Source of the DNA: a virus
Taxonomy: Duplodnaviria > Heunggongvirae > Uroviricota > Caudoviricetes
DNA: 35,411 nt
Virus record (IMG/VR): IMGVR_UViG_2654587746_000006
Location: 1 to 35,411 of that record
Strand: one strand, 5' to 3'
The translations under genes were made by a program, and so were the position numbers. How positions within the stretch are numbered: the first letter of the stretch is position 1; each line of letters begins with the position of its first letter. This document shows positions 2,621 to 35,411 of this stretch, piece after piece. The notes beneath the pieces were generated by a model that was not told where the DNA came from, searched no databases, and worked only from the letters and a program-made list of their open reading frames with translations.

Positions 2621-2732
2621 AACTGAAGTTGCCCTGAAAATGAAATTTTTTTGCACAACCGCAGAACTTTTCCGCAGGGCATCAGTCTTAATTAGTGCCA
2701 CTGCTTTTCTTTGATGTCCCCATTTTGTGGAG

Positions 2733-2776
2733 CCCATCAACCCCGCCATTTCGGTTCAAGGTTGATGGGTTTTTTG
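2733..2776 (+). terminator. Rho-independent terminator downstream of ybjL
   Basis: Perfect 10-bp stem cccatcaacc / ggttgatggg around a 17-nt loop, followed by tttttt. Confidence 0.5.
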
Positions 2777-2855
2777 TTGCCTGAAATTTATGCCTTTTAA
2801 AATCATGATGTTAGAAGCACTGTTTTTTAATGATGGCGACAAATTGGCGGCAGCG

Positions 2856-10002: not shown

Positions 10003-10077
10003 AAGGCAGTCTCTCCGGTTGTAGAGGGGGTCTGCCTATGTTCTGGTTGATACGCGCAGGGTGCACGCGATGGGGTT

Positions 10078-10095
10078 TGTATGGGAAATGGCACA
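10078..10095 (-). promoter_or_regulatory. Ogr/B-type late-promoter activator site (TGT-N12-ACA dyad) upstream of sheath gene
   Basis: Perfect tgt-atgggaaatggc-aca, centre ~84 bp upstream of the sheath ATG. Confidence 0.5.
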
Positions 10096-10325
10096 ACTGA
10101 GATTTATGAAAAGTGATGGTTAGCAGTGCATTTAACTTCGTTGAAAGGCTGGGTTAATATAATTGGAAAAAAAACATACATAAACGAGATTCAATGTCGC
10201 CTTAGTTGTATGACAAAGCACGGTTGCTTGCTATGGAGTTACATTCTGATATTCTAGAGTAATTCCGTGCACATTTATGATAATAACTGGTTATCTTTAA
10301 CATAAAAAAGAAGAGCATTACTTAT

Positions 10326-11459
10326 ATGAATCTACCATTTTCATTTATTTTAGCATTTTTCTGTATAATTGGTGCATTAGTCGCCTTCGGCTTACCGATA
10401 TTTAAATTTTTAGATGATGACATTCAGCAAAATCGTGCTAACGGTCTTGATGGAATGCGTTTTTATCTTGCATCATTCGTAATACTTCATCATATGGATT
10501 GCTCCTATTCATATTTTACAACCGGGGAATGGACCCCAATATCCCAGTGGCTTTTAACTATGGGAAAATATGGTGTAGCATTATTCTTCATGACAACAGC
10601 CTACTTATTTTGGGGGAAAATCAGGAACAAGAAAAATATTGATTGGGTAACCCTATATCAAAAAAGATTCCTTAGAATTGTCCCATTAGCTTTCTTTTGT
10701 TCATTCATGGGTATTTCTATACTTTTCATTTTCACGGAAAAAACCACATTAACTTTAACCACTATATCCAATATACTGTCCTGGTTTGATGGTAGCTTGT
10801 GGGATAATAAACCACCAGTAACGACTTTTCAGACTCCATTCATTGTGTTAGCCGGAGTTACGTGGACATTGAAATGGGAGTGGATGTTTTACTTTTCTCT
10901 TCCATTGCTATTTATTCTCAATAAAAAACCAATGGAACTGACTATTATTCTTTTTGCATTTTCGTTTTATTTATTGCCGTCCTTTACGAATACTGCATAT
11001 CTTTGGTCATATTTTTTTGCGGGGATGCTCTGCAGGGAGTTGAAAGAAAGAATTATCCTGTCCAAGACTAATGCAAATTATATTTTGATAGCTGCCATAC
11101 TGCTAACCTTTCTGTCAGCCCCTACATTATATAGCCCACCGGAGACTGCTTTCCTTGCTATTATTTTCTTTTGCATCATATCTGGAGCCGAACTCTTTGG
11201 CGCACTAACAACCAAAGCAGCCAAAAGATTAGGCGCGATTAGCTACAGTTTGTATCTCACACAGGGATTAGTACTTTTCCCAGTCTATAACTATCTGAAA
11301 TCCGCAAAAATGATGACTACTGGCCCCTTATTACTTTCGATACTTGTTATGACCTTCTTTGGCATTTGCCTGTTATCTACTTTCACTTATCATTTTATAG
11401 AATTACCGTTCATCAAAAAAATAAATAATAAATCATCAGACGGATTGCATAAAATTTAA
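10326..11459 (+). CDS. Acyltransferase family 3 integral membrane protein (O-antigen/LPS O-acetyltransferase-like); prophage cargo
   Basis: 377-aa polytopic membrane ORF with N-terminal signature NGLDGMRFYLASFVILHH (LDGxR...H of acyltransferase_3); visibly AT-rich; opposite strand to flanking tail genes. Confidence 0.85.
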   Translation: MNLPFSFILAFFCIIGALVAFGLPIFKFLDDDIQQNRANGLDGMRFYLASFVILHHMDCSYSYFTTGEWTPISQWLLTMGKYGVALFFMTTAYLFWGKIRNKKNIDWVTLYQKRFLRIVPLAFFCSFMGISILFIFTEKTTLTLTTISNILSWFDGSLWDNKPPVTTFQTPFIVLAGVTWTLKWEWMFYFSLPLLFILNKKPMELTIILFAFSFYLLPSFTNTAYLWSYFFAGMLCRELKERIILSKTNANYILIAAILLTFLSAPTLYSPPETAFLAIIFFCIISGAELFGALTTKAAKRLGAISYSLYLTQGLVLFPVYNYLKSAKMMTTGPLLLSILVMTFFGICLLSTFTYHFIELPFIKKINNKSSDGLHKI

Positions 11460-11674
11460 AAAATATGAATATATGCTTGTCTATATCAACTACTTCCCTC
11501 CGGACGAGTTATGCGAGTTGGCTCGTTGGTTTTTCCCGATACTGATGTCAGGGAGACAATCAGTGCTCAACACCAACGTCCACAAGCATGAGAATGAACA
11601 AATAAGCAGTACTGTCCAGGAAATGCTTGAAGAAACGGGGTTCTGGTTAGTCAGTGAGTAAAATTTTAAATATC

Positions 11675-11706
11675 CGCCACAGTTACGTTTTGATGATGCT
11701 GTGGCG
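11675..11706. terminator. Hairpin between convergent cargo gene and fibre-assembly gene (candidate bidirectional terminator)
   Basis: 8-bp stem cgccacag / ctgtggcg with ~16-nt loop, T-rich flanks on both strands. Confidence 0.4.
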
Positions 11707-11726
11707 AATATTTATTTTCGATAATA

Positions 11727-12323
11727 TCACTCCTCTGGTTTGCCAGGCCATTTGACATCAGGCGCTGTAGAAAAATCAACTGCATAAAGAGCGTCAAGAT
11801 AATCCAGCCATAGATTATATTGCGCCAGTTCGTCGCCTTTCAAACGCCCAATAGCCGCCTTTCCTGGCCACTGCTTACTATTTATAAACGCGTTAGCCCT
11901 GTCGATGCGGGATTGTTTTTCCGCTTCAGCGGCACCAACATTAGCAGCATGTTCTGCAGCGGTATCAGTTACCCATTTTTCACCATCCCACTTATCATAT
12001 GGTGTTGATGGAGCAATTCTGGTGTAGCCATCTCGAATCTGACCAATATAATCAATTGTCGCAGACTTTCCATCAGCGGTTGAATAAACCATCATTCCCC
12101 GATGATCTTCTTCCTGTTTCCAGTCGGTGCCAGTGAACAGAGGGACCTTTCCGGCAACGACCTCGCCCGGGTCAATATCTGTGGAGTTGCCAGGCATACT
12201 CACGCCGATATGGATATATTCATCTGACCAGCCGGTATACTCTCCCGTCACCGCATCATAATAAAAACAGCGAACATCACCCGGCTCTGCCGCCAGTCCG
12301 TCTGCATCGAAGACAGGTTTCAT
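11727..12323 (-). CDS. Tail fibre assembly protein (P2 gpG-like / Tfa)
   Basis: 198-aa ORF immediately downstream of the tail fibre gene, sharing one base between fibre stop and its ATG. Confidence 0.85.
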   Translation of the reverse strand: MKPVFDADGLAAEPGDVRCFYYDAVTGEYTGWSDEYIHIGVSMPGNSTDIDPGEVVAGKVPLFTGTDWKQEEDHRGMMVYSTADGKSATIDYIGQIRDGYTRIAPSTPYDKWDGEKWVTDTAAEHAANVGAAEAEKQSRIDRANAFINSKQWPGKAAIGRLKGDELAQYNLWLDYLDALYAVDFSTAPDVKWPGKPEE

Positions 12324-13867
12324 TACTTGGCCCTCACAAGAAGATTAAACGAGATATTACGTGGGCGGTTTTCTGCCGCCACAGGTACGCCAGCATTTGC
12401 GGCGTTAAAGAAAGCGAACTGAGCTAATGTCGTCGGATTGCCATCAACACCTAAATTTACAATGTTCTGGGCGCCCCCGGCGATGAACGCGCCATCAGCG
12501 ACGGTATTCCCCACCATCGTAATAAACCCCAGACTGCCAGTGATATTTCGGATTGCATCTCCCTGCGGACTGAGCAATGAACGTCCGCTATCGATACCGC
12601 GTCCGTCATCCCACACGCGCAGAAACTCCCCCCGGGCTTCTGTCAGCCTGAGCCCGGGAAAAACCTTAGCCAGTTTCGGATAAGTCGCTGCAGAAAACGT
12701 CGCACCGTTAAATTTCAGAAAAACCATATCTGACCATTCATCCATGACCGTATTTGGCATTGCAGCAGATGGCCAGAAGAACGGGATCCCGACTGGCGGA
12801 GCGCCCGCGCTCAAACCAAGATAGGCGAGCAGACCAGCAACATCCTTTCCACTCAAATTAGTCAGCGTATTGTCCAGCGGTTGTTTACCTGACAGCGCAT
12901 TCAACATTGTCGTGGCAAAGTTCGGGTCATTCCCCAGCGCCGCCGCCAGTTCGTTCAGCGTATCCAGTGCCGCAGGTGCAGAACCCACCATGGCCGCAAT
13001 TGCCGATTTCACAAAAGCCGTGGTGGCAATCTGTGTATTGTTGACAGACTGTGCCGCAGTCGGTGCTGTTGGCGTTCCGGTAAGTGCCGGACTCGACAGT
13101 GGCGCTTTGAGTGCCAGCGCATTGTTAATGGTGGTACTGAATTTCGGGTCATTGTTAATGGCAGCGGCTATTTCTTTCAGCGTATCCAGTGTGGCTGGCG
13201 CACCATTAATCAGGGCCATCAGTGCCGCCTGAACAAACGCGGTGGTCGCAATCTGCGTGGTGTTATTCCCCTCCGCAGGTGTTGGCGCTTTGGGTGTTCC
13301 GGTCAATGTCGGGCTTTCTTTGGGTGCATACTGTGAATGCGGGTCCGGTGCGGCAAGATGTTTTGCCATCTGCTCATCCACGTACACCTTCAGCTCCAGT
13401 GCCTTATCATCCACATACTTGCGGGTTGCCAGCACTACGGCAGGGTCGATTTTCAGGGTGATATTGTCCGTGCTGCTGGTAATCAGCACCATGCGCACGG
13501 TCTGGGTGCGCCCGCTGCCTTCAGCCAGTTGCGGCTTATAGCTTTCCGGGCAGTTGCCCACGGCAATCAATGCCCCGGATTCATCAAACAGGCCCACTTC
13601 ACGAATCCACCAACCGCCCTCGTTTTCAGGGATCACCTGTTCAGCAATAATCTGGCTGCTGTTCTGCGGGTCGATATAGAGCATATTCAGCGCAGCCCGG
13701 CGTTTCTCATTTACCAGTGCAGTCTGCTTTGCGTCCGGCGTCGGCAATGCTCCACCACCATCCCCCACCGCCATATGGGTAATTTTAAGCGGCACACCAA
13801 GTGCAGTGGCGCTGGCAAGTTTCGCCGCACCAATCTCCGTCAGCAGGGTATAAAATTTTGTGCTCAT
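12323..13867 (-). CDS. Tail fibre protein (P2 gpH-like) with internal repeats and C-terminal tail-collar-type domain
   Basis: 514 aa; N-terminus MSTKFYTLLTEIGAAKLA...; two ~60-aa repeats (NNTTQIATTAFV...LDTL.E.AAA..NDP.F.TT); C-terminal GEFLRVWDDGRGIDSGRSLLSPQGDAIRN resembles tail-collar domains. Confidence 0.9.
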   Translation of the reverse strand: MSTKFYTLLTEIGAAKLASATALGVPLKITHMAVGDGGGALPTPDAKQTALVNEKRRAALNMLYIDPQNSSQIIAEQVIPENEGGWWIREVGLFDESGALIAVGNCPESYKPQLAEGSGRTQTVRMVLITSSTDNITLKIDPAVVLATRKYVDDKALELKVYVDEQMAKHLAAPDPHSQYAPKESPTLTGTPKAPTPAEGNNTTQIATTAFVQAALMALINGAPATLDTLKEIAAAINNDPKFSTTINNALALKAPLSSPALTGTPTAPTAAQSVNNTQIATTAFVKSAIAAMVGSAPAALDTLNELAAALGNDPNFATTMLNALSGKQPLDNTLTNLSGKDVAGLLAYLGLSAGAPPVGIPFFWPSAAMPNTVMDEWSDMVFLKFNGATFSAATYPKLAKVFPGLRLTEARGEFLRVWDDGRGIDSGRSLLSPQGDAIRNITGSLGFITMVGNTVADGAFIAGGAQNIVNLGVDGNPTTLAQFAFFNAANAGVPVAAENRPRNISFNLLVRAK

Positions 13868-22309: not shown

Positions 22310-24076
22310 ATGAACACCACACTGACACCCGCAGATCTCGATCCCCGTCGGCAGGCCATGCTGCTGTACTTTCAGGGATACCGCGTAGCCCGCATTGCTG
22401 AAATGCTGGGCGAGAAAGTTGCAACCGTTCACAGCTGGAAAAAACGCGACAAGTGGGGTGACTATGGGCCGCTGGATCAGATGCAGCTCACCACCGCCGC
22501 ACGCTACTGCCAGCTCATCATGAAGGAGCACAAAGAAGGGAAAGATTTCAAAGAGATTGACCTGCTGGCGCGCCAGTCTGAGCGCCACGCGCGGATCGGC
22601 AAATTTAACAATGGCGGCAACGAAGCCGACTTAAACCCTAACGTCGCCAACCGCAACAAAGGCCCGCGCCGTCAGCCGGAAAAAAATGTCTTCACCGATG
22701 AACAGATTGAGAAGCTGGAAGAAATCTTCCATTCCTCCATGTTCAACTACCAGCGCCACTGGTGGGAAGCCGGAAAAACCAACCGCATCCGCAACCTGCT
22801 GAAGTCACGCCAGATCGGCGCGACCTTTTACTTTGCCCGTGAAGCCCTGATTGACGCCCTGCTTACCGGGCGTAACCAGATTTTCCTTTCCGCCAGTAAG
22901 GCACAGGCCCACGTCTTTAAGCAGTACATCATCGACTTCGCCAAAGAAGTGGAGGTGGAGCTGAAAGGCGATCCGATGGTGCTTCCTAACGGGGCCACGC
23001 TTTACTTCCTCGGCACCAATGCCCGCACGGCCCAGAGTTATCACGGCAACCTGTATCTGGATGAATATTTCTGGATACCGAAATTTCAGGAGCTACGCAA
23101 AGTGGCTTCCGGTATGGCTATTCACAAGAAATGGCGGCAGACCTATTTTTCCACACCATCTAGTCTGACCCACAGTGCTTATCCGTTCTGGTCCGGTGCG
23201 CTGTTCAACCGTGGGCGCAACAAAGCTGACAAGGTGGACATCGACCTGTCCCACAGCAATCTGGCCCCCGGCCTGCTGTGCGCAGACGGGCAATACCGCC
23301 AGATAGTCACCGTGGAAGATGCGGTGCGCGGCGGCTGTAACCTGTTCGACCTCGACCAGTTGCGCATGGAGTACAGCCCGGACGAATACCAGAACCTGCT
23401 GATGTGTGAGTTCGTAGACGATCTCGCGTCCGTGTTCCCGCTCAGCGAGCTGCAGGCGTGCATGGTGGACAGCTGGGAAGTCTGGACCGACTTTCATGCA
23501 CTGGCCCTGCGCCCGTTTGGCTGGCGCGAGGTGTGGATCGGTTATGACCCGGCAAAAGGTACGCAGAACGGCGACAGTGCCGGATGCGTGGTGGTGGCAC
23601 CGCCAGCCGTGCCGGGCGGCAAGTTCCGCATTCTTGAGCGTCACCAGTGGCGCGGGATGGACTTTCGCGCCCAAGCTGACGCCATCAAAAAACTGACCGA
23701 ACAGTACAACGTGACCTATATCGGCATCGACTCAACCGGCGTTGGTCACGGGGTTTATGAGAACGTGAAAGCGTTCTTTCCTGCCGTCCGGGAGTTTGTC
23801 TACAATCCCAATGTTAAAAACGCCCTGGTACTCAAGGCCTACGACATTATCAGCCACCGCCGTCTGGAGTTTGACGCCGGGCACACCGACATTGCGCAGT
23901 CATTCATGGCAATCCGTCGCGCCACCACCGCCAGCGGCAACCGCCCGACCTATGAAGCCAGCCGCAGCGAAGAAGCCAGCCACGCCGATCTGGCCTGGGC
24001 AACGATGCACGCACTGTTTAACGAACCGCTGCAGGGCGAATCCGCCAATACCAGCAATATTGTGGAGATTTTTTGA
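22310..24076 (+). CDS. Terminase large (ATPase) subunit, P2 gpP-like
   Basis: 588-aa ORF divergent from capsid operon and followed by overlapping portal gene. Confidence 0.9.
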   Translation: MNTTLTPADLDPRRQAMLLYFQGYRVARIAEMLGEKVATVHSWKKRDKWGDYGPLDQMQLTTAARYCQLIMKEHKEGKDFKEIDLLARQSERHARIGKFNNGGNEADLNPNVANRNKGPRRQPEKNVFTDEQIEKLEEIFHSSMFNYQRHWWEAGKTNRIRNLLKSRQIGATFYFAREALIDALLTGRNQIFLSASKAQAHVFKQYIIDFAKEVEVELKGDPMVLPNGATLYFLGTNARTAQSYHGNLYLDEYFWIPKFQELRKVASGMAIHKKWRQTYFSTPSSLTHSAYPFWSGALFNRGRNKADKVDIDLSHSNLAPGLLCADGQYRQIVTVEDAVRGGCNLFDLDQLRMEYSPDEYQNLLMCEFVDDLASVFPLSELQACMVDSWEVWTDFHALALRPFGWREVWIGYDPAKGTQNGDSAGCVVVAPPAVPGGKFRILERHQWRGMDFRAQADAIKKLTEQYNVTYIGIDSTGVGHGVYENVKAFFPAVREFVYNPNVKNALVLKAYDIISHRRLEFDAGHTDIAQSFMAIRRATTASGNRPTYEASRSEEASHADLAWATMHALFNEPLQGESANTSNIVEIF

Positions 24077-25107
24077 TGGGAAAGAGTAAGAAAAACCGCG
24101 CTGCGGCGACGAATCAGCTCAAGCATAAAAGCCAGACTTCAGCCGAAGCATTCAGCTTTGGCGATCCCGTTCCTGTTCTGGACCGCCGTGAACTGCTGGA
24201 CTATGTGGAATGCGTACAGATGGACCGCTGGTATGAGCCGCCCGTCAGCTTTGACGGACTGGCACGAACCTTCCGCGCTGCCGTGCATCACAGCTCACCG
24301 ATTGCAGTAAAATGCAACATTCTGACCAGTACCTACATCCCTCACCCGCTGCTCAGCCAGCAGGCTTTTTCACGTTTTGTGCAGGACTATCTGGTATTTG
24401 GTAACGCCTACCTGGAGAAACGCACGAACCGCTTCGGTGAAGTTATCGCCCTTGAGCCTGCTCTGGCAAAATACACCCGACGCGGGTTAGACCTGGATAC
24501 CTACTGGTTTGTGCAATACGGTATGACAACCCAGCCGTATCAGTTCACGAAAGGCAGCATTTTTCATCTGATGGAACCGGACATTAACCAGGAGATCTAC
24601 GGCCTACCCGGCTATCTTTCTGCCATTCCGTCCGCCCTGCTCAATGAGTCCGCCACGCTGTTCCGCCGCAAGTATTACATTAACGGTAGTCATGCAGGCT
24701 TCATCATGTACATGACCGATGCTGCGCAGAACCAGGAGGACGTGAACAACCTCCGCAATGCAATGAAAAGTGCCAAAGGTCCGGGTAACTTCCGCAACCT
24801 GTTTATGTACTCGCCTAACGGCAAAAAGGACGGCCTTCAGATCATCCCTTTGTCAGAAGTTGCGGCGAAGGATGAGTTTCTAAATATCAAGAACGTGAGC
24901 CGGGATGACATGATGGCAGCACATCGCGTTCCGCCACAGATGATGGGGATAATGCCAAATAATGTCGGGGGATTTGGGGATGTGGAAAAGGCTAGTAAAG
25001 TATTCGTAAGAAACGAATTGATATCAATGCAAAAACGGATCAAGGAGATTAATGTCTGGTTAGGTACAGATATTATCGCATTTACAGAATATAACTTAGA
25101 TATGTAA
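24073..25107 (+). CDS. Portal protein, P2 gpQ-like
   Basis: 344-aa ORF overlapping terminase stop (ATGA); last ~50 codons look AT-rich by eye. Confidence 0.9.
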   Translation: MMGKSKKNRAAATNQLKHKSQTSAEAFSFGDPVPVLDRRELLDYVECVQMDRWYEPPVSFDGLARTFRAAVHHSSPIAVKCNILTSTYIPHPLLSQQAFSRFVQDYLVFGNAYLEKRTNRFGEVIALEPALAKYTRRGLDLDTYWFVQYGMTTQPYQFTKGSIFHLMEPDINQEIYGLPGYLSAIPSALLNESATLFRRKYYINGSHAGFIMYMTDAAQNQEDVNNLRNAMKSAKGPGNFRNLFMYSPNGKKDGLQIIPLSEVAAKDEFLNIKNVSRDDMMAAHRVPPQMMGIMPNNVGGFGDVEKASKVFVRNELISMQKRIKEINVWLGTDIIAFTEYNLDM

Positions 25108-25123
25108 TCGTCCCACAATACAA

Positions 25124-25145
25124 GGCAAAGAGCATACTCTTTGCC
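25124..25145. terminator. Bidirectional hairpin terminator between convergent portal and RT genes
   Basis: Perfect 9-bp stem ggcaaagag / ctctttgcc with 4-nt loop, between portal stop (25107) and RT stop (25157). Confidence 0.6.
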
Positions 25146-25156
25146 TGTGATTACAG

Positions 25157-26914
25157 TTATACTTTGCACCTCTTTGAATAATCTGCAATAATTTCCTCAA
25201 TACCATCAAAAATAACTTTAAACTTTTCAAAACTAATTGTTTTACAATTTGCCTTTATAACCTTTGTTGAAAACACATGCTTACCATATTCTGTTTTTGT
25301 ATCCGTATCATTAGATTTATTAAATGTCTTTCCATCAAGCACCGTTGATAGTACCGTGCTATCAAATAAATCCTCCATACAAGACTCTTTCCCTCCAGGA
25401 AGCAATGGTGTTAATAACAAATAGAGATTGTCAAATATGTGGGTATACCTTGCCTTACGAATAGTATCAACATCATTTGGACAATTTTTTACTTTATCCT
25501 TTAAGTGATTTAATAAATCTTTAGGGCCTGAGTCATTATCAAGAAGCATAATAACAGGGTGCTTTGGTTTAAATTTCTCGAACCTCTTTTTTTGTTCTTG
25601 GTATCTTAATATAAATCTTTTGAAGTCTGTAGCACCGCCAGAAATGTCAAGAAAATAGCTTGTTTTTTCAGTTGCTTTAAAAAAATTAACACGATACTCA
25701 TTTTTAGAGCTATCATCAGAAGAATTAAACAATAAAGGATATGAATTCGCCAATGACTTCAAAGCACACTTTAAATATACACGGTCTGTTTTACCCTCAG
25801 TGAGTATTGTTGGCATTTCCATTCCATGAAAATTTTTATAGTATAGAAAATAACTGTAGGCTTTTTCTCTCGAATTCAATTTTGCAGTGTAGTTTAATCC
25901 ATGATTTACACTTTGGTACTTTTCCAACTGTCTTGCGTTCTTTAGTTTTAAATTATTATATTTATCTATTGAGTCAATAAATCCAAAACGGCCTTCTAAT
26001 TTAGCACATGTACCTTTTTCAATCTTTCCTGATTCAGTAACAATAACAAAAGAACCATCTTTATAAAGAGAATGAGCCATGGCACGCGTTACTTTTGCAT
26101 ATTCTTTGCCAACATTCACTTTTTTATTAACAGTCAACCCAGTAACATCTTGTCGTGATGTTTTATAACAAACCCTTGTCTTTTTATCATTTATTTTAAA
26201 GCCAGCCTTTATAATCTCTTTAATTAAAGTTGGACTTAGGGTTACAGACTCTCCGCCAACATCAGCAATCTCTTTTGGAAATGTTTTTTTATTAGTTGAA
26301 AATGTAAGATCATCAGCATACCGTGAATAATTGCATCCGTATTTCTTTGCTAACTTTGATAATCTTATATCAAGAATTCCACTGATTAAGTTACTTATAA
26401 TTGGAGAGCATGGGCTTCCTTGAGGAAGTCCATTCTGAAAACATGCAATTTGTGCGATCGTTGTAGCAACAGTATTATTTAATCTAAAATCTCTGTTTGA
26501 TAAGAAAAAACCTCTAACACGTCCAAAATTAAAACTATCAAAATAATCCTCAAGGTCTATATTTAGTAGTAGCGTTTTACCTCTATGCCGTTCAGCATTC
26601 GTAATAATTGACTTTTCTTTTTCAAACCCATGAGATAAAACTGGATTAATATTATATTTTTTATAAATTTCCGCACGACATAAATATAAAACATCAGCTA
26701 ATCTACGTTGAATATCTTTGAGCTTAGTGGTAGGTGCTGATATGACTCTCGGCGCTCCGTTTTTTTTAGGGATAGTAAATTGTGTATACTGCGTTTCAGC
26801 TTTTAAACGATAAATAACATCCGTAAGAAAAGCAGTTTTAAGATTCAAGATACTAGCCAAATCTTGCCTGTTAGCAGCGTTTTGTAAACGTTCTAAAATT
26901 GATAGGGGTGCCAT
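25157..26914 (-). CDS. ret: Retron-type reverse transcriptase with C-terminal TOPRIM-like domain
   Basis: 585 aa; RT motifs NAERH (NAxxH), LLNIDLEDYFDS, QGSPCSP, YADD, VTG; C-terminal ~220 aa with TOPRIM-like Glu (ILTEGKTD) and DxD (LLDNDSG); AT-rich; preceded by msr/msd-like region. Confidence 0.9.
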   Translation of the reverse strand: MAPLSILERLQNAANRQDLASILNLKTAFLTDVIYRLKAETQYTQFTIPKKNGAPRVISAPTTKLKDIQRRLADVLYLCRAEIYKKYNINPVLSHGFEKEKSIITNAERHRGKTLLLNIDLEDYFDSFNFGRVRGFFLSNRDFRLNNTVATTIAQIACFQNGLPQGSPCSPIISNLISGILDIRLSKLAKKYGCNYSRYADDLTFSTNKKTFPKEIADVGGESVTLSPTLIKEIIKAGFKINDKKTRVCYKTSRQDVTGLTVNKKVNVGKEYAKVTRAMAHSLYKDGSFVIVTESGKIEKGTCAKLEGRFGFIDSIDKYNNLKLKNARQLEKYQSVNHGLNYTAKLNSREKAYSYFLYYKNFHGMEMPTILTEGKTDRVYLKCALKSLANSYPLLFNSSDDSSKNEYRVNFFKATEKTSYFLDISGGATDFKRFILRYQEQKKRFEKFKPKHPVIMLLDNDSGPKDLLNHLKDKVKNCPNDVDTIRKARYTHIFDNLYLLLTPLLPGGKESCMEDLFDSTVLSTVLDGKTFNKSNDTDTKTEYGKHVFSTKVIKANCKTISFEKFKVIFDGIEEIIADYSKRCKV

Positions 26915-26949
26915 ATCTAAAAATCAACCTTGATTATCAGTTAGGGTAG

Positions 26950-26962
26950 GCACATGTAGGCA
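26950..26962. repeat. Retron inverted repeat a2 (gcacatgtaggca on + strand)
   Basis: Perfect reverse complement of 27068-27080. Confidence 0.7.
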
Positions 26963-27067
26963 CTCTTACGCAAAGCATAGGACAGCCCAAGAATGGCTAC
27001 AAGGATGTCAGAAGGCGAATCCATCTAACATTTAGATCACTGATTGCGATACCACAACCAACAAATC

Positions 27068-27080
27068 TGCCTACATGTGC
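27068..27080. repeat. Retron inverted repeat a1 (tgcctacatgtgc on + strand)
   Basis: Perfect reverse complement of 26950-26962. Confidence 0.7.
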
Positions 27081-27159
27081 ATGCTTAAGCTACCATGATC
27101 ATTTAAGAATGTGAAGAACCGTTAACAGTTTTGAAAGAGCCAGATCATAGCATTGCGCG

Positions 27160-27190
27160 CGCTCGTATCCCCGCCACGCCTGCCCGCTTT
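27160..27190 (-). other. Candidate cos (cohesive-end) site of the P2/186-like phage
   Basis: Minus strand reads GGCGTGGCGGGGA..., resembling my recollection of P2/186 cohesive ends (GGCGAGGCGGGGAAAGCAC type); oriented toward the portal gene. Confidence 0.45.
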
Positions 27191-27225
27191 ATGTAGTGGT
27201 TTTCATGCACCTGCATGATCTACAC

Positions 27226-27250
27226 AAAAGCCCGCCAGTTCTGGCAGGCC
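27226..27250 (-). terminator. Candidate terminator of the SOS-controlled operon
   Basis: Imperfect GC-rich hairpin gcccgccag..ctggcaggc followed on the minus strand by tttt. Confidence 0.4.
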
Positions 27251-27383
27251 TTAGCAAAAACGATCCTCAAACGATCATGCGATCTCATGCGGCATAGACA
27301 TGCACCACAGAGCTAACGCCTCGCACAGCTCGTTGTTCAACCTTGCTGACGCCAGAAGCAAGTTCAGACGCCAGCAACGTTTC

Positions 27384-27617
27384 TTAATGCAGCCAGCTGT
27401 CGTCTTCCCACACCTTCTGCATAATTTTCATCACTTGCTTCCTTTCTTCGTCCAGTTGCAGTCCGGTCAGTTCCACACCGTTAGAGCTACCTTTGCGGAT
27501 ACGAATTACCGTTTTGGGATACAGGGGGCGCAGATTACGGTAAAGCTCGGATTCAAGGGCGTCTAGGGTAGACTGGCTAATCTTCTGCTCTTTATCGATC
27601 ATTATTTCAATGCGCAT
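27384..27617 (-). CDS. dinI: DinI-like protein (DNA-damage-inducible protein I family)
   Basis: ~78 aa from Met MRIEIMIDKEQ... with GAGGTG RBS; resembles E. coli DinI (MRIEV... WE..D.W); ORF track extends 24 codons upstream. Confidence 0.8.
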   Translation of the reverse strand: MRIEIMIDKEQKISQSTLDALESELYRNLRPLYPKTVIRIRKGSSNGVELTGLQLDEERKQVMKIMQKVWEDDSWLH

Positions 27618-27627
27618 AAAAGTCACC

Positions 27628-27816
27628 TCAACTGATGACATCCATTGAGCGGTTGTATTCGTGGGTTCTGATTTTTGCCATGAGTTCATCTGTTAGTTCA
27701 GAAACCCACTGTAAAGCCAGCCCCTTCTCTTCATCACTACACTCACTAGCCGCTACAAGCTTAAGAAAAAAATCAATGCGCTGGAGCTTCAAAGACTCCA
27801 AAAAATAGTCCTGCAT
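27628..27816 (-). CDS. Small hypothetical protein, first gene of LexA-box operon (possible Tum-like antirepressor module)
   Basis: 62 aa from Met MQDYFLESLK... with AGGAGG RBS 4 nt upstream; directly downstream of SOS box; overlaps dinI-like start by ~11 nt. Confidence 0.5.
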   Translation of the reverse strand: MQDYFLESLKLQRIDFFLKLVAASECSDEEKGLALQWVSELTDELMAKIRTHEYNRSMDVIS

Positions 27817-27969: not shown

Positions 27970-30384
27970 TTAATACAGGTTCCGCCACTTATCATCTTCC
28001 TGCAAACGCTGGTTCCGATAGAAGATACGCAGGCCTGCTCCTGACGGAATACTGCCACCGCGAAGGAGCAAATCGACCTCTTTCTCGCTGCCATCAAATC
28101 CTCTGGACTTCAGTTCATAGACGAGTTGCTGACGCTGATACTCTGTAATTCGCTGTTTGTAGTCTTTACGCCGTTTCGGTTTAACCAGGCGTAATCTTGC
28201 TGCCAGTTCCCGGCGCTCTTTTTTGCTCATACTGTGCAGGTAATCGTGCAACTCCTTGTCATCCATGCGGGTGATATCCGTTCTGGTATCCCCATCAGCT
28301 GATTTGTCTTTCCCTTGTTGGTTCAAATTTTCAGCAAGGGGACAGTTATTGCCACGAGTCCAAGGGGCGCAAGCGCCCTGGTCGGCTGCCGCCTCCTGAA
28401 CGTCAACGGCCTTACGAACCATTTTCCACTTCACTGCATGAGTGCAGATCTTGCCCTCTGCAATGGGTGACCAGATGCCATAAATACGAATACCGTGATC
28501 ACCATAGGCGGTCGGCTCTTCGTTGATTTCATAAGCGGTTCTGATCAAGTGATATTTGCGGGGAACCAACACGCCGCCCTGCTTCATAATGTAGGTGGCA
28601 AAACAGCCAGCATCAGCAGCAGCCAGAATGGCATCAAGACGCGGATCATCCAGTACCGGCGCACCTGCTTTTTTGTCACCCTGCTGCCTTGCCGCCTGAC
28701 CAGCCAGCAATCGCAGTTCACGGTAAGCCTGACGCCCCGGAATGCCAAAGAAGCGGAATTGCTGAACACGATGCAGAGACGCCCAGGCATTAACGTATTC
28801 AGCGTTATCACGCAGGGATTTACCCGTTTCCTTGCTGATCTCGCCAGCCAGACCACGCCCGTCAATGTTCTTACTGATGTATTTCGCGATGTAGCTTGTC
28901 GGCGTTCCTTTGCGCGGGTTAATCAGCTCAGACTTAAAGCGTGGCCCCGTGTTATTGCCCAGTTCCTCGCGGTCTTCACGGATGGCAAACTTACGCAGTA
29001 ATGCAGTGATGGCGCGGCGGTCTTTTTTACGTATGAAGCACATGAGATGCCAGTGCACAGTACCGTCATGATGCGGCTCAGCCACCCGCACGCCATACCA
29101 CCGCAATCCGGCTTTGTGCATCGCCTTACGAAATGCAGCAAACATGCCGACCAGATAATCACTGCTTTGTCTTACCGTCGCATTTGTCCAGGTCGGGTTT
29201 GGTCTGCCGTTATTGAGCGTGGAATGGAAACGTGACGGACAGGTGATGGTGTAGAAAACGGCGCAGTCACCGCGCATTTCCGCGATAAGCTCCAGACCTT
29301 TAACGCAGGCCATCATCTCATTGCGGCGATGTGCCGGGTTGCTGCTGCTGGCGTTTACCACATCTTCCATATCCAGCGTGTCTCCGTCTTCGTTCACCAG
29401 TTCATGAGAACGGAAAAACTCCAGCGACTTGCGGCGCTGCTCACGTTTATGCGTCACTGCTTCATAGCTGACATAGGGAGATGCTTTTTTGCTGACCAGA
29501 CAGACAGCACGCAACTGCTCTTCCCGCCATTCGCAACGCATCTTCCACAATTTTCGATACCACCAGTCGGCGCAAAGCATACGTGCCAGCGAACCCGGTA
29601 TGAGTTCATAGGGCACAGGTTTGCGGCGGTTTCTTTTCCGACGAAGTTTCTCAAACGCAGGCGGGATAACATCCAGACGCAGGGTTTCCGCAGCCACCTT
29701 TTCCCATGTCTTGCGGATTTCTTCTGGCTTAACGTCATCGGTGGCGTACAAATCACCACAAGCGGCCTCAAGACACATGCTCATATGCGCTGCTACCAGG
29801 GTGGACAGGCGTTTCACCTGATCCTGGCTCATTTCAGGCAGGATCAGCAGCCCCTCCAGCCCTTGATGGCTTGCCATAAAACGGAAAGAAACAGATAGCT
29901 GACTGTCACGTACACAATCCAGTCGCTCCAGACATGGCTTAATCGTCTCACGCAAATAGCGGGAATAAGCCTTTGGCCTGCCCAGGCTGCTGAAGTATTC
30001 GATACGTTGCATCAGCGGCTTGCTGATATGAGAAGGCTGGGCGCTGACATCTGCCAGAATGACCATGTCCGGGTTAAAACGCTGCTGCTCATGCGCCAGC
30101 TTTGCCCGGCTAATGAGCTTATCCTGCTCCATTTCGCGCTGGACAGGATCACGGGATTCATTAAAGAAATAACGCTCCCAGACCTGCTCACTCAGTGCCT
30201 CGCGGCGCAGTTGTTCCTGCTCGTTATCGGCAGCGTACAGAGTGATCAGGTTTGAAAGTGCAGACTCCGGCGCAACTTCCGCCGGATCCAGATAAGGGTT
30301 AATGGCCTTTTTCGGGCCGTTCCATGAAAATGCTGCGGCAGCCTCGTTAAAGCCGCTAGAGTTGCTCATATCGTCATGACTCAT
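27970..30384 (-). CDS. Replication initiation protein, P2 gpA-like rolling-circle nickase
   Basis: 804-aa ORF with HUH-type and tyrosine motifs (TVHWHLMCF; [10 protein letters not shown]); last gene of the early operon. Confidence 0.88.
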
Positions 30385-31238
30385 ACACGCACCTCGTACA
30401 CAGCAGAACTATCCACGCCACGCGAAGGATCAAATCCCATCCAGCAGCGCGACCCGGAAACAGCAATGATTTCTGTTGCAGATTTACTCTCGCCAGCTGA
30501 CACGCCGATGCTGCGTTTTGCCTTGATGTAGTGGTGAGTGAAATTGCGATACAGCGAACGGATCAGGGATGTGTCACTGTTAGAAACAATGACCGGATGA
30601 CCTTCTGATGATCGATATTCAAGAACGGATGCCAGGTGATACTGGTCATCTTCAGTGAAGCCGTCAGTGTGATAACCGGAAAACGTGCCGTCATACGGCG
30701 GATCGCAATACACCACATCCCCCGCCTTCAACATCGCCAGCGTTTCATCAAAGCTGGCGCAGATAAACGTTGCTCGCTGGGCCTTTTCTGCAAATGCGTG
30801 AATTTCTTTTTCAGGGAAATACGGATTTTTATAATTACCGTAGGGAATGTTGAAATGCCCGCTCTTGTTATAGCGACATAAACCACGGTAACCGTGACGA
30901 TTGAGATACAGGAAATATACCGCTTTCATGAAATCAGTAATTTCAGTTGAGTAATTAAACTCCTGCCTTATGTTGTAATAAGCTAGGTCACTGTTTGCTT
31001 CCTCAAACAAAGTTCTGGTCCGCGATATAAACGCCTCGCAATCAGCGGCAATCTTTTTATAGAGGTTGATTAAATCAGGATTAATATCCGCAACCAGATA
31101 GCTGGGGTAATCCGTCTCCATCATCACAGCACAGGAACCCGCGAAAGGTTCAACCAGTCGCGGGCCAGCAGGTAGGTATTTTTTCAGTTCGGACATAATT
31201 GCGGTTTTATTTCCCGCCCATTTCAGGATGGTGCTCAT
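30381..31238 (-). CDS. dam: DNA adenine methyltransferase (Dam-like, orphan)
   Basis: ~285 aa from Met [11 protein letters not shown]...; motif [11 protein letters not shown] and motif IV DPPY; stop overlaps A start; no adjacent restriction endonuclease gene. Confidence 0.88.
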
Positions 31239-31462
31239 ACAGCACCTCCGTTGTAATGTTTGCCTTTCAGCTCTGCGATTTCCTGACAGGTAATGCAAAG
31301 CTGCACTCCAGGAATGGCACGGCGGCGTGCTGGCGGAATTGGTGCTTCACATTCAATGCAAAGCACGCGAGACACGCCCGGTGTTTTGGCACGGGCAGCA
31401 CGGATATGGCGCTGGCGTTCTTCTTCAACGCGCTGCTGTACGAGATCCATTGCATCAGCCAT
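31235..31462 (-). CDS. DksA/TraR-family C4 zinc-finger protein
   Basis: 75 aa with CIECEAPIPPARRRAIPGVQLCITCQ; start overlaps upstream stop (TAATG). Confidence 0.8.
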   Translation of the reverse strand: MADAMDLVQQRVEEERQRHIRAARAKTPGVSRVLCIECEAPIPPARRRAIPGVQLCITCQEIAELKGKHYNGGAV

Positions 31463-34191: not shown

Positions 34192-34379
34192 CTTTTGCTT
34201 TTATATCTGCGCCTAAAATAAAAATGAGCCACAGGTTAACCGCAAAAGTTACATGCTCACATAGCAAAAAGAATAGCCTACTTCATTATGGCTTCAGTGA
34301 GATGTATGGTCGCAGGATTTCATACATTGACACTGGTTATACATACAGTAAAAATGCTCTCTATTGGAGGGCATTTTTT

Positions 34380-35411
34380 ATGGCTGTACGAAAACTCACC
34401 ACAGGAAAATGGCTTTGCGAATGTTACCCCGCCGGACGTAGTGGGCGTCGTGTGCGTAAACAATTCGCCACCAAAGGCGAAGCACTGGCTTTTGAGCGTC
34501 ACACGATGGAAGAAACCGAAGCAAAGCCCTGGCTGGGTGAATCAGTGGATCGTCGAACACTGAAAGACGTGGTTGAGCTATGGTTCAAACTACATGGTAA
34601 ATCACTGACTGCTGGGCAGCATGTCTATGACAAATTGCTGCTGATGGTTGACGCTCTGGGCAATCCCCTTGCAACTGATCTCACATCTAAAATGTTTGCC
34701 CACTATCGAGATAAACGCCTGACAGGTGAGATCTACTTCAGCGAGAAATGGAAGAAAGGAGCAAGCCCGGTCACCATTAACCTGGAGCAAAGCTATCTAA
34801 GTAGTGTTTTTAGCGAACTATCCCGCCTGGGCGAATGGTCGTATCCGAACCCACTGGAGAACATGCGAAAATTCACCATCGCAGAAAAAGAGATGGCATG
34901 GCTTACCCATGAGCAGATTGTTGAATTGCTGGCTGATTGCAAACGTCAGGACCCAATTCTGGCACTGGTAGTTAAGATATGCTTAAGCACAGGCGCACGT
35001 TGGCGTGAAGCCGTAAATCTTACCCGCTCACAGGTGACCAAATACCGAATTACCTTTGTAAGAACGAAGGGGAAGAAAAACAGAAGCATCCCTATCAGTA
35101 AAGAGCTTTACGAAGAGATCATGGCGCTTGATGGGTTCAATTTCTTTACAGACTGCTATTTTCAATTTTTATCCGTGATGGAAAAAACGTCTATCGTGCT
35201 CCCTCGCGGTCAACTGACACACGTTCTGCGCCATACGTTTGCGGCGCACTTCATGATGTCGGGTGGAAATATCCTGGCCTTACAAAAAATTCTCGGGCAT
35301 CACGATATAAAAATGACTATGCGTTACGCACATCTGGCACCGGATCACCTGGAAACTGCATTACGGTTTAATCCGCTGGCAACACTACCAACATCAATAG
35401 CAAGTTTTTGA
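34380..35411 (+). CDS. int: Tyrosine integrase (P2/186 family)
   Basis: ~343 aa from Met MAVRKLTTGKWLCECYP... with GGAGG RBS; catalytic signatures TGARWREA, HVLRHTFAAH, MRYAHLAPDH; stop codon is the last 3 bases of the window. Confidence 0.9.
   Translation: MAVRKLTTGKWLCECYPAGRSGRRVRKQFATKGEALAFERHTMEETEAKPWLGESVDRRTLKDVVELWFKLHGKSLTAGQHVYDKLLLMVDALGNPLATDLTSKMFAHYRDKRLTGEIYFSEKWKKGASPVTINLEQSYLSSVFSELSRLGEWSYPNPLENMRKFTIAEKEMAWLTHEQIVELLADCKRQDPILALVVKICLSTGARWREAVNLTRSQVTKYRITFVRTKGKKNRSIPISKELYEEIMALDGFNFFTDCYFQFLSVMEKTSIVLPRGQLTHVLRHTFAAHFMMSGGNILALQKILGHHDIKMTMRYAHLAPDHLETALRFNPLATLPTSIASF

What the first reader, a model, noticed from the sequence alone, without database searches (positions are those of the whole stretch)
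26950..27080. Structured non-coding RNA (msr/msd) flanked by perfect 13-bp inverted repeats a1/a2
Seen in sequence: tgcctacatgtgc (27068-27080) is the exact reverse complement of gcacatgtaggca (26950-26962), bracketing ~105 nt with no plausible ORF, directly 5' of the RT start (26914) on the minus strand. The minus-strand transcript would begin ...GCACATGTAGGCAGATTTGTTGGTTGTGG..., which resembles my memory of a known E. coli retron msr 5' region (recollection only). The spacing between the repeats is compatible with a short msDNA plus msdRNA. A candidate promoter (TTCACA - 17 nt - TAGCTT, minus strand ~27085-27120) lies just upstream.
Basis: partly seen in the sequence, partly recalled or inferred. 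Interest (0 to 1): 0.75.

Follow-up and report, generated by a model that had tools for sequence, protein, structure and literature searches.

The report
Ec67-family retron RNA gene in prophage
The flagged stretch is the small non-coding RNA gene of a bacterial retron, an anti-phage immune element closely related to the well-studied E. coli retron Ec67/Eco2; it sits in a P2-like prophage and is a new but ordinary member of a known family.

Summary
On the minus strand, 27081-26950 is a 132-nt retron ncRNA (msr-msd). It lies 35 nt upstream of a 585-aa RT-Toprim gene (25157-26914).

- **Family:** the RT is a type I-C retron RT, 57% identical to Ec67/Eco2. The ncRNA aligns end to end with the 132-nt Ec67 ncRNA.
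- **Independent model:** a covariance model built from 46 relatives, with the window left out, finds one hit in the window, exactly here (97.9 bits, E 8e-33). It also hits upstream of the RT in 81 of 82 other RT-Toprim loci.
- **Covariation:** 12 of 13 a1/a2 pairs and 7 of 9 msr-hairpin pairs show compensatory changes.
- **Mapped by homology:** branching G at 27067, template 27029-26964, predicted msDNA 66 nt.
- **Context:** the retron occupies the gpA-portal defence hotspot of a P2-like prophage next to rybB.

This exact variant is in 14 of 5,426 complete E. coli genomes. Its RT is already annotated "retron Ec67 family"; the ncRNA is never annotated. msDNA production and defence activity are inferred, not shown. 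Verdict: new member of a known kind, low to moderate interest.

The parts
27110..27115 (-). Candidate -35 hexamer TTCACA
   Evidence: Read from the sequence. It starts at -48 relative to the branching G. TTG starts at -49 to -47 in 44 of 81 distinct family loci, with the mode at -48. The window has TTC rather than TTG.
27087..27095 (-). Candidate extended -10 element TGgTAGCTT
   Evidence: Read from the sequence. TGnTAnnnT starts at -29 to -27 relative to the branching G in 44 of 81 loci (mode -28, which is the window's position). TAnnnT starts at -26 to -24 in 65 of 81 loci. The generic promoter scan did not flag it, because the -10 hexamer matches only 3 of 6. A start about 6 nt downstream fits RNA nt 1 at 27081.
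26950..27081 (-). Retron ncRNA (msr-msd), 132 nt; RNA nucleotide n lies at coordinate 27082-n
   Evidence: Global alignment with the 132-nt Ec67 ncRNA. The covariance model R1, built without the window, gives one hit at 26942-27088(-), 97.9 bits, E 8.3e-33. nhmmer with this sequence hits upstream of the RT in more than 50 of 80 distant loci. RNA fold -54.8 kcal/mol, z -4.72.
27068..27080 (-). a1 arm (RNA nt 2-14), GCACAUGUAGGCA
   Evidence: Perfect 13-bp complement of a2. In the 46-sequence MAFFT alignment, 12 of 13 pairs show changes on both sides and 95.5% of cells are paired, against 31-38% when the partner column is slid.
27067..27067 (-). Predicted branching guanosine (RNA G15), whose 2'-OH would prime DNA synthesis
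   Evidence: It aligns with Ec67 G15 (G15 is the priming nucleotide according to PMC12916289 and PMC12405507). The column is G in 82 of 82 aligned family members, within the invariant A-G-A..U-U context. The position is inferred by homology.
27039..27062 (-). msr stem-loop (RNA nt 20-43): 10-bp stem with a 4-nt loop GUAU
   Evidence: It is the counterpart of the Eco2 RNA stem-loop G20-U42 seen by cryo-EM (PMC12405507). 7 of 9 tested pairs have compensatory changes and 89.4% of cells are paired. The window has one extra loop base and G24-U39 in place of Ec67's G-C.
27029..27032 (-). Termination motif A50-A51-U52-G53; G53 is the predicted last templated base
   Evidence: It aligns with Ec67 A49-A50-U51-G52. 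In Eco2, U51 is flipped out and G52 pairs with the last DNA base dC67 (PMC12916289; PMC12405507). A (nt 50) is invariant, and G and U (nt 53, 54) are conserved in at least 90% of sequences.
26964..27029 (-). msd template (RNA nt 53-118); predicted 66-nt msDNA 5'-TCTTACGCAAAGCATAGGACAGCCCAAGAATGGCTACAAGGATGTCAGAAGGCGAATCCATCTAAC-3'
   Evidence: Derived by homology. The same rule reproduces the 67-nt Ec67 msDNA, which agrees, apart from OCR noise, with the RT-DNA listed for Eco2 in the supplement of PMC10849725. Both ends are conserved (GCGUAAGA at the start of the template, UCGCC near its end); the centre is variable.
26963..26963 (-). Unpaired G119 between the template and a2, opposite the branching G; not copied
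   Evidence: It aligns with Ec67 G119. It lies in the conserved GAGUGCC block, within which A119, G121, A122 and T124 of the 141-nt extract are invariant.
26950..26962 (-). a2 arm (RNA nt 120-132), UGCCUACAUGUGC
25157..26914 (-). Retron RT-Toprim fusion gene (585 aa), type I-C
   Evidence: Pfam RVT_1, E 5e-27. PADLOC RT-Toprim_I-C, E 2.7e-223. PDB Retron Ec67, E 5e-217. 57% identical to P0011, which is the Ec67 protein. Motifs YADD at 199, EGKTD at 373 and DND at 459. Eco2 RNA-contact residues F46, R56, K66, R70, K245, R247, S253 and H281 are conserved; T249 is C here.

Best explanation
Window 27081-26950 (minus strand) is the msr-msd non-coding RNA gene of a type I-C retron of the Ec67/Eco2 family. 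The retron is carried as cargo in the cos-proximal (gpA-to-portal) hotspot of a P2-like prophage.

**Proposed working, step by step**
1. An extended -10 promoter (27115-27087) starts a transcript at about 27081 that runs through the ncRNA into the RT-Toprim gene. This is inferred from position and family conservation.
2. The 13-bp a1/a2 duplex closes the RNA and places G15 (27067) at its end, next to a conserved 10-bp msr stem-loop. The sequence and covariation show this.
3. The RT uses the 2'-OH of G15 to prime DNA synthesis. It copies from A118 (26964) back to G53 (27029) and stops at the conserved AAU|G motif, giving a 66-nt DNA joined 2'-5' to about 60 nt of RNA. This is inferred by homology with Ec67, where these steps are experimentally established.
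4. As shown for Eco2, three RT-Toprim:msDNA units would form a trimer in which the msDNA cages the Toprim nuclease. Phage nucleases such as DenB or A1 degrade the msDNA. The freed Toprim nicks tRNA acceptor stems, and translation stops, aborting the infection. This step is inferred entirely from the Eco2 literature.
For: **Sequence and structure**
- Perfect 13-bp a1/a2 repeat.
- RNA fold z-score -4.72.

**Homology with Ec67**
- The downstream ORF is RT-Toprim I-C and matches the solved Ec67 protein.
- P0011 matches the PDB Ec67 chain over its full length (1323.8 bits), so it is taken as the Ec67 protein, and it is 57% identical to the window RT.
- The Ec67 ncRNA from L085 is also 132 nt and aligns throughout. 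Aligned identity is 32/38 in the msr (nt 15-51) and 41/65 in the msd.

**Family-wide conservation**
- nhmmer with the window RNA finds homologues directly upstream of the RT in more than 50 distant loci.
- In the MAFFT alignment, a1/a2 has 12 of 13 compensatory pairs and the msr hairpin 7 of 9. Overall 87% of cells are paired, against 31-38% in slid controls.
- The covariance model built without the window gives a single window hit of 97.9 bits, E 8e-33, and hits upstream of the RT in 81 of 82 other RT-Toprim loci.
- The branching-G column is G in 82 of 82 members.
- The promoter lies at the modal family position.

**Protein**
- The catalytic motifs and 11 of 12 checked Eco2 residues (RNA/DNA contacts plus catalytic residues) are conserved.

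**Context and literature**
- The retron occupies the same prophage slot as Ec67, which is a known defence hotspot (PMC9122126).
- The mechanism comes from PMC12916289 and PMC12405507.
Against: - No experiment here shows a transcript, msDNA or defence activity.
- No Rfam family matches, even at E of 10 or less.
- The -10 hexamer is weak (3 of 6) and the generic promoter scan missed it.
- The msd core differs from Ec67 by substitutions and indels (41/65). The predicted msDNA has no significant fold of its own (z 0.17), so whether it supports the Eco2-type three-way junction and trimer is unknown.
- One Eco2 RNA-contact residue differs (T249 to C).
- The second small hairpin seen in most family members is absent here and in Ec67.
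Confidence: 0.92

Rival explanations
1. A decayed or silent retron relic: the RNA gene and the RT are recognisable but no longer make msDNA or defend the cell.
For: The -10 hexamer is weak. The variant is rare, in 14 of 5,426 genomes. The msd core has diverged from Ec67. Contact residue T249 is C.
Against: The ORF is intact at 585 aa with YADD, EGKTD and DND present. All family-invariant RNA positions and both helices are kept, and the window scores 97.9 bits, higher than Ec67 itself (92.8) with the same model. The copies in 14 genomes are 99.5-99.9% identical. The promoter layout matches the family mode.
Confidence: 0.05
2. An ordinary structured 5' leader, attenuator or terminator of the RT mRNA, or a cassette-boundary inverted repeat, that does not serve as a template for reverse transcription.
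For: The terminator scan flags a weak hairpin with a T-rich tail inside the region (27000-26982). The retron cassette is exchanged as a module between P2-like prophages.
Against: The flagged hairpin lies in the variable msd core and is not conserved. The cassette boundaries are at about 25053 and 27154, outside the repeats. The RNA is homologous, base for base, at the priming G, the template start and the termination motif, to an RNA for which reverse transcription has been shown structurally.
Confidence: 0.02
3. A chance inverted repeat with no function.
For: 8% of simulated windows contain a perfect 13-nt inverted repeat with arms 150 nt or less apart.
Against: Compensatory changes keep the helix in 46 divergent sequences. 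An independent covariance model gives E 8e-33. The position relative to the RT is conserved in 81 of 82 loci.
Confidence: 0.01

Closest known systems
Retron Ec67 / Retron-Eco2 (type I-C1), E. coli; cryo-EM structures 9I2F/9I2G/9S1F and 9LM3
   Same: - Layout: promoter, 132-nt ncRNA, then a single RT-Toprim gene.
- ncRNA features: 13-bp a1/a2, branching G15 in AGAUUU, a 10-bp msr stem-loop, the AAU|G stop motif, and G119 before a2.
- Protein motifs: YADD, EGKTD and DxD.
- Same slot (DinI-like gene to portal gene) in a P2-like prophage that also encodes a Dam methylase.
- Sources.
   Different: - The RT is only 57% identical.
- The msr loop has 4 nt instead of 3, and G24-U39 replaces a G-C pair.
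- The msd core has only 41 of 65 aligned positions identical, with three indels.
- The predicted msDNA is 66 nt, not 67.
- T249 is C.
- The Ec67 locus has a DUF8087 gene upstream that the window lacks.
- No experimental data exist for this variant in the sources searched.
Ec67-family retron common in E. coli ST131 and related strains (L002, next to dhaR)
   Same: The RT is annotated 'retron Ec67 family'. The ncRNA is 74-80% identical to the window's and shares the extended hairpin at the msr/msd junction.
   Different: It is chromosomal, not in a P2-like prophage, and is followed by ABC-three-component genes. Related ncRNAs at 77-80% identity occur in about 510 genomes, against 14 for the window variant.
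Retron Ec86 / Eco1 (type II-A)
   Same: The general retron logic: a1/a2, a branching G at the end of a1, an unpaired G before a2, and 2'-5' priming (the Ec86 RNA details are from my own knowledge). The RT domain is related (E 6e-33).
   Different: It has a separate effector protein, a long hairpin msDNA, an extra msr stem-loop, and forms filaments rather than a trimer (PMC12916289; PMC12405507).

Membership tests
Retron ncRNA (msr-msd), type I-C / Ec67 family | Inverted repeats a1/a2 that close the RNA | tested here: met
   13 bp, perfect. 12 of 13 pairs have compensatory changes across 46 sequences, and 95.5% of cells are paired.
Retron ncRNA (msr-msd), type I-C / Ec67 family | Branching G directly 3' of a1 in a conserved context, with an unpaired G before a2 | tested here: met
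   G at 27067 aligns with Ec67 G15. The column is G in 82 of 82 members. The AGA..UU and GAGUGCC blocks are conserved.
Retron ncRNA (msr-msd), type I-C / Ec67 family | msr stem-loop bound by the RT (Eco2 G20-U42) | tested here: met
   10-bp stem at nt 20-43. 7 of 9 tested pairs are compensatory. The Eco2 counterpart is described in PMC12405507.
Retron ncRNA (msr-msd), type I-C / Ec67 family | Matches a family covariance model built without this sequence | tested here: met
   Model R1: 97.9 bits, E 8.3e-33, the only hit in 35.4 kb on either strand.
Retron ncRNA (msr-msd), type I-C / Ec67 family | Lies immediately upstream of the retron RT, on the same strand | tested here: met
   35 nt before the ATG at 26914. 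The arrangement is the same in 81 of 82 other loci.
Retron ncRNA (msr-msd), type I-C / Ec67 family | Second small hairpin (consensus GUCC-GAAA-GGAU) after the msr stem-loop | tested here: not met
   Two of its four pairs are non-standard in the window. The helix is weakly supported family-wide (76% paired) and is also absent from Ec67, so it does not define the Ec67 subgroup.
Retron ncRNA (msr-msd), type I-C / Ec67 family | Matches a curated Rfam retron RNA family | tested here: not met
   No Rfam 15 family matches at the gathering score or at E of 10 or less in 26600-27500. This means no curated model matches this RNA type; it is not evidence against the assignment.
Retron ncRNA (msr-msd), type I-C / Ec67 family | Production of 2'-5' branched RNA-linked msDNA | not testable with these tools
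   Needs nucleic-acid extraction and gels or sequencing.
Type I-C1 retron RT-Toprim protein (Eco2-like) | Retron RT domain with the YADD active site | tested here: met
   RVT_1, E 5e-27. YADD at 199-202.
Type I-C1 retron RT-Toprim protein (Eco2-like) | C-terminal Toprim domain with motif IV EGxxD and motif V DxD (DxE would indicate I-C2) | tested here: met
   EGKTD at 373 and DND at 459. The definitions are from PMC7736814. PADLOC RT-Toprim_I-C, E 2.7e-223. C1 versus C3 was not resolved.
Type I-C1 retron RT-Toprim protein (Eco2-like) | Residues that contact the msr RNA or the RNA-DNA duplex in Eco2 | tested here: met
   F46, R56, K66, R70, Y199, D201, D202, K245, R247, S253 and H281 are conserved; T249 is C (residue list from PMC12405507).
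Type I-C1 retron RT-Toprim protein (Eco2-like) | Trimer caged by msDNA; tRNA cleavage on msDNA loss; phage defence | not testable with these tools
   Known only for Eco2 (PMC12916289).
P2-like prophage cos-proximal defence hotspot | Cargo lies between replication gene gpA and portal gene gpQ | tested here: met
   gpA-like ORF at 27970-30384(-), DinI-like gene at 27384-27689(-), retron, then portal at 24073-25107(+). The hotspot is defined in PMC9122126.

The most novel reading that the evidence does not exclude
The conserved ends and variable centre of the msd template suggest that the central part of the msDNA is the sensor surface that evolves. This variant's 66-nt msDNA has a core only about 60% like Eco2's, with indels, and a different short inverted repeat (AGCC...GGCT). 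It might not build the Eco2-type three-way junction, or it might respond to a different set of phage nucleases. Retron cassettes swapped in P2 prophages would then differ in trigger range.
Probability: 0.15. Interest if true: 0.45.

Novelty: new member of a known kind. Interest (0 to 1): 0.25.

Why it matters
It gives exact coordinates (branching G, template, stop site, promoter) for an unannotated retron RNA that genome pipelines skip. RefSeq names the RT in all 14 genomes that carry this variant but never the RNA, and roughly 510 further E. coli genomes carry related unannotated ncRNAs. A natural Eco2 relative with 57% RT identity, a conserved RNA scaffold and a divergent msDNA core could help test which parts of the msDNA set trimer assembly and trigger specificity. 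It could also serve as an alternative chassis for retron-based DNA production. It does not change the current understanding of retrons.

Tried and rejected
- **Rfam:** scans of the whole window and of the local region at E of 10 or less gave no retron family hit; the only real match was RybB elsewhere.
- **Generic promoter/terminator scan:** it missed the promoter and flagged only a weak hairpin inside the msd core. I rejected that hairpin as a terminator because it is not conserved.
- **Literature search by sequence string:** no paper found.
- **Viral contigs with the single RT protein:** only two near-identical loci.
- **INPHARED phage records:** no match.
- **P0003 and P0014 as the Ec67 protein:** rejected on PDB scores of 694.6 and 962.2 bits. 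P0011 scores 1323.8 bits over its full length and is taken as Ec67.
- **First hairpin-2 register:** copied from the window, it was wrong (56% paired). The corrected register reaches only 76% and is absent from the Ec67 subgroup.
- **DNA folding of the predicted msDNAs:** no significant structure for either the window or Ec67, so a classical long msDNA hairpin is not supported. This agrees with the Eco2 cryo-EM report.
- **Supplements of PMC7736814:** not held as text, so I could not check whether this RT is in that catalogue. The census supplement lists Eco2 but not this variant.

Full report
**1. Observation**

The + strand reads GCACATGTAGGCA at 26950-26962 and its exact reverse complement at 27068-27080, with 105 nt between them (pair I4). 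It is the only perfect 13-nt inverted repeat with arms 150 nt or less apart in the window. First-order Markov simulations give 0.12 such repeats per window, and 8% of simulated windows have at least one. The repeat alone is therefore only mildly unusual.

The interval holds no ORF longer than 27 aa. It ends 35 nt before the ATG (26914) of a 585-aa minus-strand ORF. The minus-strand RNA from 27085 to 26945 folds to -54.8 kcal/mol, with z = -4.72 against dinucleotide shuffles.

**2. The gene downstream**

- The ORF 25157-26914(-) has an RVT_1 domain.
- It matches the PADLOC RT-Toprim_I-C models over their full length (E 2.7e-223).
- It matches the solved "Retron Ec67 protein" chains 9LM3 and 9I2F (E 5e-217).
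- In the 5.8-billion-protein search its own 90% cluster has 886 members, named "retron Ec67 family RNA-directed DNA polymerase/endonuclease". The next relatives are 64% identical or less.
- P0011 matches the PDB Ec67 chain over 1-586 with 1323.8 bits, consistent with identity, and I take it as the Ec67 protein. It is 57% identical to the window protein.
- The window protein keeps YADD (199-202) and the Toprim motifs EGKTD (373-377) and DND (459-461). These are the I-C1/I-C3 signature defined by Mestre et al. (PMC7736814).
- It also keeps Eco2 residues F46, R56, K66, R70, K245, R247, S253 and H281, which contact the RNA or the RNA-DNA duplex. Only T249 differs, being C here (residue list from PMC12405507).

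**3. The RNA compared with Ec67**

A contig that encodes P0011 (L085) carries the Ec67 ncRNA at 2832-2963, 37 nt upstream of the RT. It is 132 nt long, the same length as the window RNA counted from 27081 to 26950. The two align end to end.

| Segment (Ec67 numbering) | Identical / aligned |
|---|---|
| a1 | 11/14 |
| msr nt 15-51 | 32/38 |
| msd nt 59-118 | 41/65, with three indels |
| G119 plus a2 | 11/14 |

Nucleotides 8-29 are identical, including AGGCA-G-AUUUGUUGGUUGUG.

Published work on Eco2 states the following (PMC12916289; PMC12405507):
- Synthesis is primed at the 2'-OH of G15.
- There is a single msr stem-loop, G20-U42.
- The last pair made is G52:dC67, with U51 flipped out and A49/A50 stacked.

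Carrying these over (RNA nucleotide n lies at coordinate 27082-n) gives this map for the window:

| Feature | RNA position | Window coordinates |
|---|---|---|
| Branching G | G15 | 27067 |
| msr stem-loop | nt 20-43 | 27062-27039 |
| Stop motif A-A-U-G | nt 50-53 | 27032-27029 |
| Template | nt 53-118 | 27029-26964 |
| Uncopied G | G119 | 26963 |
| a2 | nt 120-132 | 26962-26950 |

All subsequences were checked. The window stem-loop has one extra loop base and a G-U pair where Ec67 has G-C.

The predicted msDNA is 66 nt: TCTTACGCAAAGCATAGGACAGCCCAAGAATGGCTACAAGGATGTCAGAAGGCGAATCCATCTAAC. The same rule regenerates the 67-nt Ec67 msDNA. That sequence agrees with the RT-DNA printed for Eco2 in the retron census supplement, apart from OCR noise (PMC10849725).

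Neither predicted msDNA has a significant fold of its own as DNA (z 0.17 and 0.05). This fits the cryo-EM report that the Eco2 msDNA does not form the once-proposed hairpin.

**4. Comparative test**

A scan of species-representative genomes with an alignment of 28 RT-Toprim proteins returned 80 loci, 40-57% identical to the window RT.

- *Sequence search:* nhmmer with the single window RNA found a homologous stretch directly upstream of the RT in more than 50 of them.
- *Alignment:* a MAFFT alignment of 46 sequences, not fitted to any structure, shows invariant A-G-A, U-U, and blocks within the conserved GCGNAAGAGUGCC stretch.
- *Pair counts*:

| Helix | Pairs with changes on both sides | Cells paired |
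|---|---|---|
| a1/a2 | 12 of 13 | 95.5% |
| msr hairpin | 7 of 9 | 89.4% |
| Whole structure | - | 87.4% |

  Slid controls give 31-38% paired, and 0 of 500 shuffles reach the observed covariation score.
- *Covariance model:* I built model R1 from 46 relatives including Ec67, but without the window or its near-identical copies. It gives exactly one hit in the window, 26942-27088 on the minus strand, at 97.9 bits and E 8.3e-33. It also gives a hit at the same place upstream of the RT in 81 of the 82 other RT-Toprim loci searched. The branching-G column is G in all 82 forward-strand matches.
- *Second hairpin:* a small hairpin seen in most family members (GUCC-GAAA-GGAU) is only weakly supported (76% paired). 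It is missing in the window, in Ec67 and in their closest relatives. Those have instead a hairpin across the msr/msd junction.

**5. Promoter**

The preceding TG makes it an extended -10. The generic scan did not report it, because the -10 hexamer matches only 3 of 6.

I anchored 81 distinct family loci on the branching G:
- TGnTAnnnT starts at -29 to -27 in 44 loci. The mode is -28, the window's position.
- TAnnnT starts at -26 to -24 in 65 loci.
- TTG starts at -49 to -47 in 44 loci. The mode is -48, where the window has TTC.

A start about 6 nt after the -10 hexamer coincides with RNA nt 1, placed 14 nt before G15 as in the Ec67 numbering. The promoter is therefore well supported by position, though not shown by experiment.

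**6. Surroundings**

| Feature | Coordinates | Source |
|---|---|---|
| ybjL-like permease | 935-2620 | |
| RybB sRNA | 2700-2778 | |
| P2-like prophage, tail gene D to integrase | 3165-4265 to 34224-35411 | |
| Portal gene | 24073-25107(+) | |
| Retron (RT plus ncRNA) | 25157-27081(-) | this report |
| DinI-like gene | 27384-27689(-) | |
| gpA replication gene | 27970-30384(-) | |

- The retron lies in the cos-proximal hotspot of P2-like phages, which is known to carry defence systems including retrons (PMC9122126). Ec67 occupies the same slot.
- Against the Ec67 prophage, the segment that differs is about 25053-27154, so ncRNA, promoter and RT travel as one cassette.
- Other genomes with this same retron carry extra cargo at the 27305-27374 junction: a SIR2 gene plus an ATPase gene in L086, and a HEPN gene in L001. 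The window has none.

**7. Distribution and prior knowledge**

- The 1,974-nt RT plus ncRNA segment occurs at 99.5-99.9% identity in 14 of 5,426 complete E. coli genomes.
- The RT is always annotated "retron Ec67 family", and the ncRNA never is.
- About 510 further genomes match only the ncRNA part, at 77-80% identity. One example is the ST131-type retron next to dhaR.
- No GenBank phage record matches.
- I found no paper or held supplement that contains this variant's RNA.

**8. Mechanism**

The best-supported reading is an Eco2-type single-protein retron. The ncRNA is reverse-transcribed from G15 into a 66-nt msDNA. The msDNA assembles three RT-Toprim subunits and cages the Toprim nuclease. 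Phage nucleases such as DenB or A1 degrade the msDNA, and the freed Toprim nicks tRNA acceptor stems, which halts translation (PMC12916289).

- *Shown here:* homology, conserved structure, intact motifs, and context.
- *Inferred:* transcription start, msDNA ends, trimer formation, triggers, and tRNA cleavage.

**9. Verdict**

The finding is real and correctly interpreted. It is an uncharacterised but ordinary member of the Ec67/Eco2 (type I-C) retron family. Interest is low to moderate. The one open angle is whether the divergent msDNA core changes assembly or trigger range.

Noticed in passing
window 2700-2778 (+): A full-length RybB sRNA (Rfam RF00110, 105.3 bits) lies just outside the prophage end, after a ybjL-like permease gene (935-2620). 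The P2-like prophage is therefore inserted next to rybB. In a related genome the other flank is rcdA/ybjJ.
   Followed up: partly
window 10326-11459 (+): A 377-aa Acyl_transf_3 (membrane acyltransferase) gene sits on the opposite strand among the tail genes, between the tail sheath and tail-fibre assembly genes. Within 10003-13407 the window does not match the related prophage L086. It looks like a second cargo slot (Z/fun-like, from my own knowledge of P2), possibly a surface-modifying moron. It has no PADLOC hit.
   Followed up: partly
window 27305-27374; L086 16492-19828; L001 3843-5896; L085 1846-2619: This roughly 70-bp junction upstream of the retron is where sister prophages carry different extra cargo: a SIR2 gene plus an ATP-binding protein gene, a LA2681-family HEPN gene, or a DUF8087 gene. 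The window has nothing there. The retron is therefore one module in a composite hotspot.
   Followed up: partly
window 30381-31298 (-): The prophage encodes a D12-class DNA adenine methylase next to gpA. From memory, the original Ec67 element was also reported to encode a Dam methylase. Any link with the retron was not examined.
   Followed up: no
window 26946-26952 and 26956-26962 (minus strand: TGCCTAC twice): The first 7 nt of a2 are repeated directly after a2. This gives an alternative 10-nt, 90% pairing (pair I11) that would bury the branching G in a helix. Ec67 lacks the repeat, so it is probably incidental.
   Followed up: no
L002 5001-5143 and about 510 other E. coli genomes: An ncRNA 74-80% identical to the window's lies unannotated upstream of another Ec67-family RT. 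In ST131 it is next to dhaR and is followed by ABC-three-component system genes rather than sitting in a P2 prophage.
   Followed up: partly
81 family loci, -49 to -20 relative to the branching G: Type I-C retron ncRNAs from many phyla share an extended -10 promoter (TTG, about 17 nt, TGnTAnnnT) at a fixed distance from the branching G, although the surrounding sequence is not conserved.
   Followed up: yes
window 27339-27381: A 19-nt, 79% complementary inverted repeat with a 5-nt loop lies just downstream of the DinI-like gene, at the edge of the hotspot junction. It may be that gene's terminator (pair I2).
   Followed up: no
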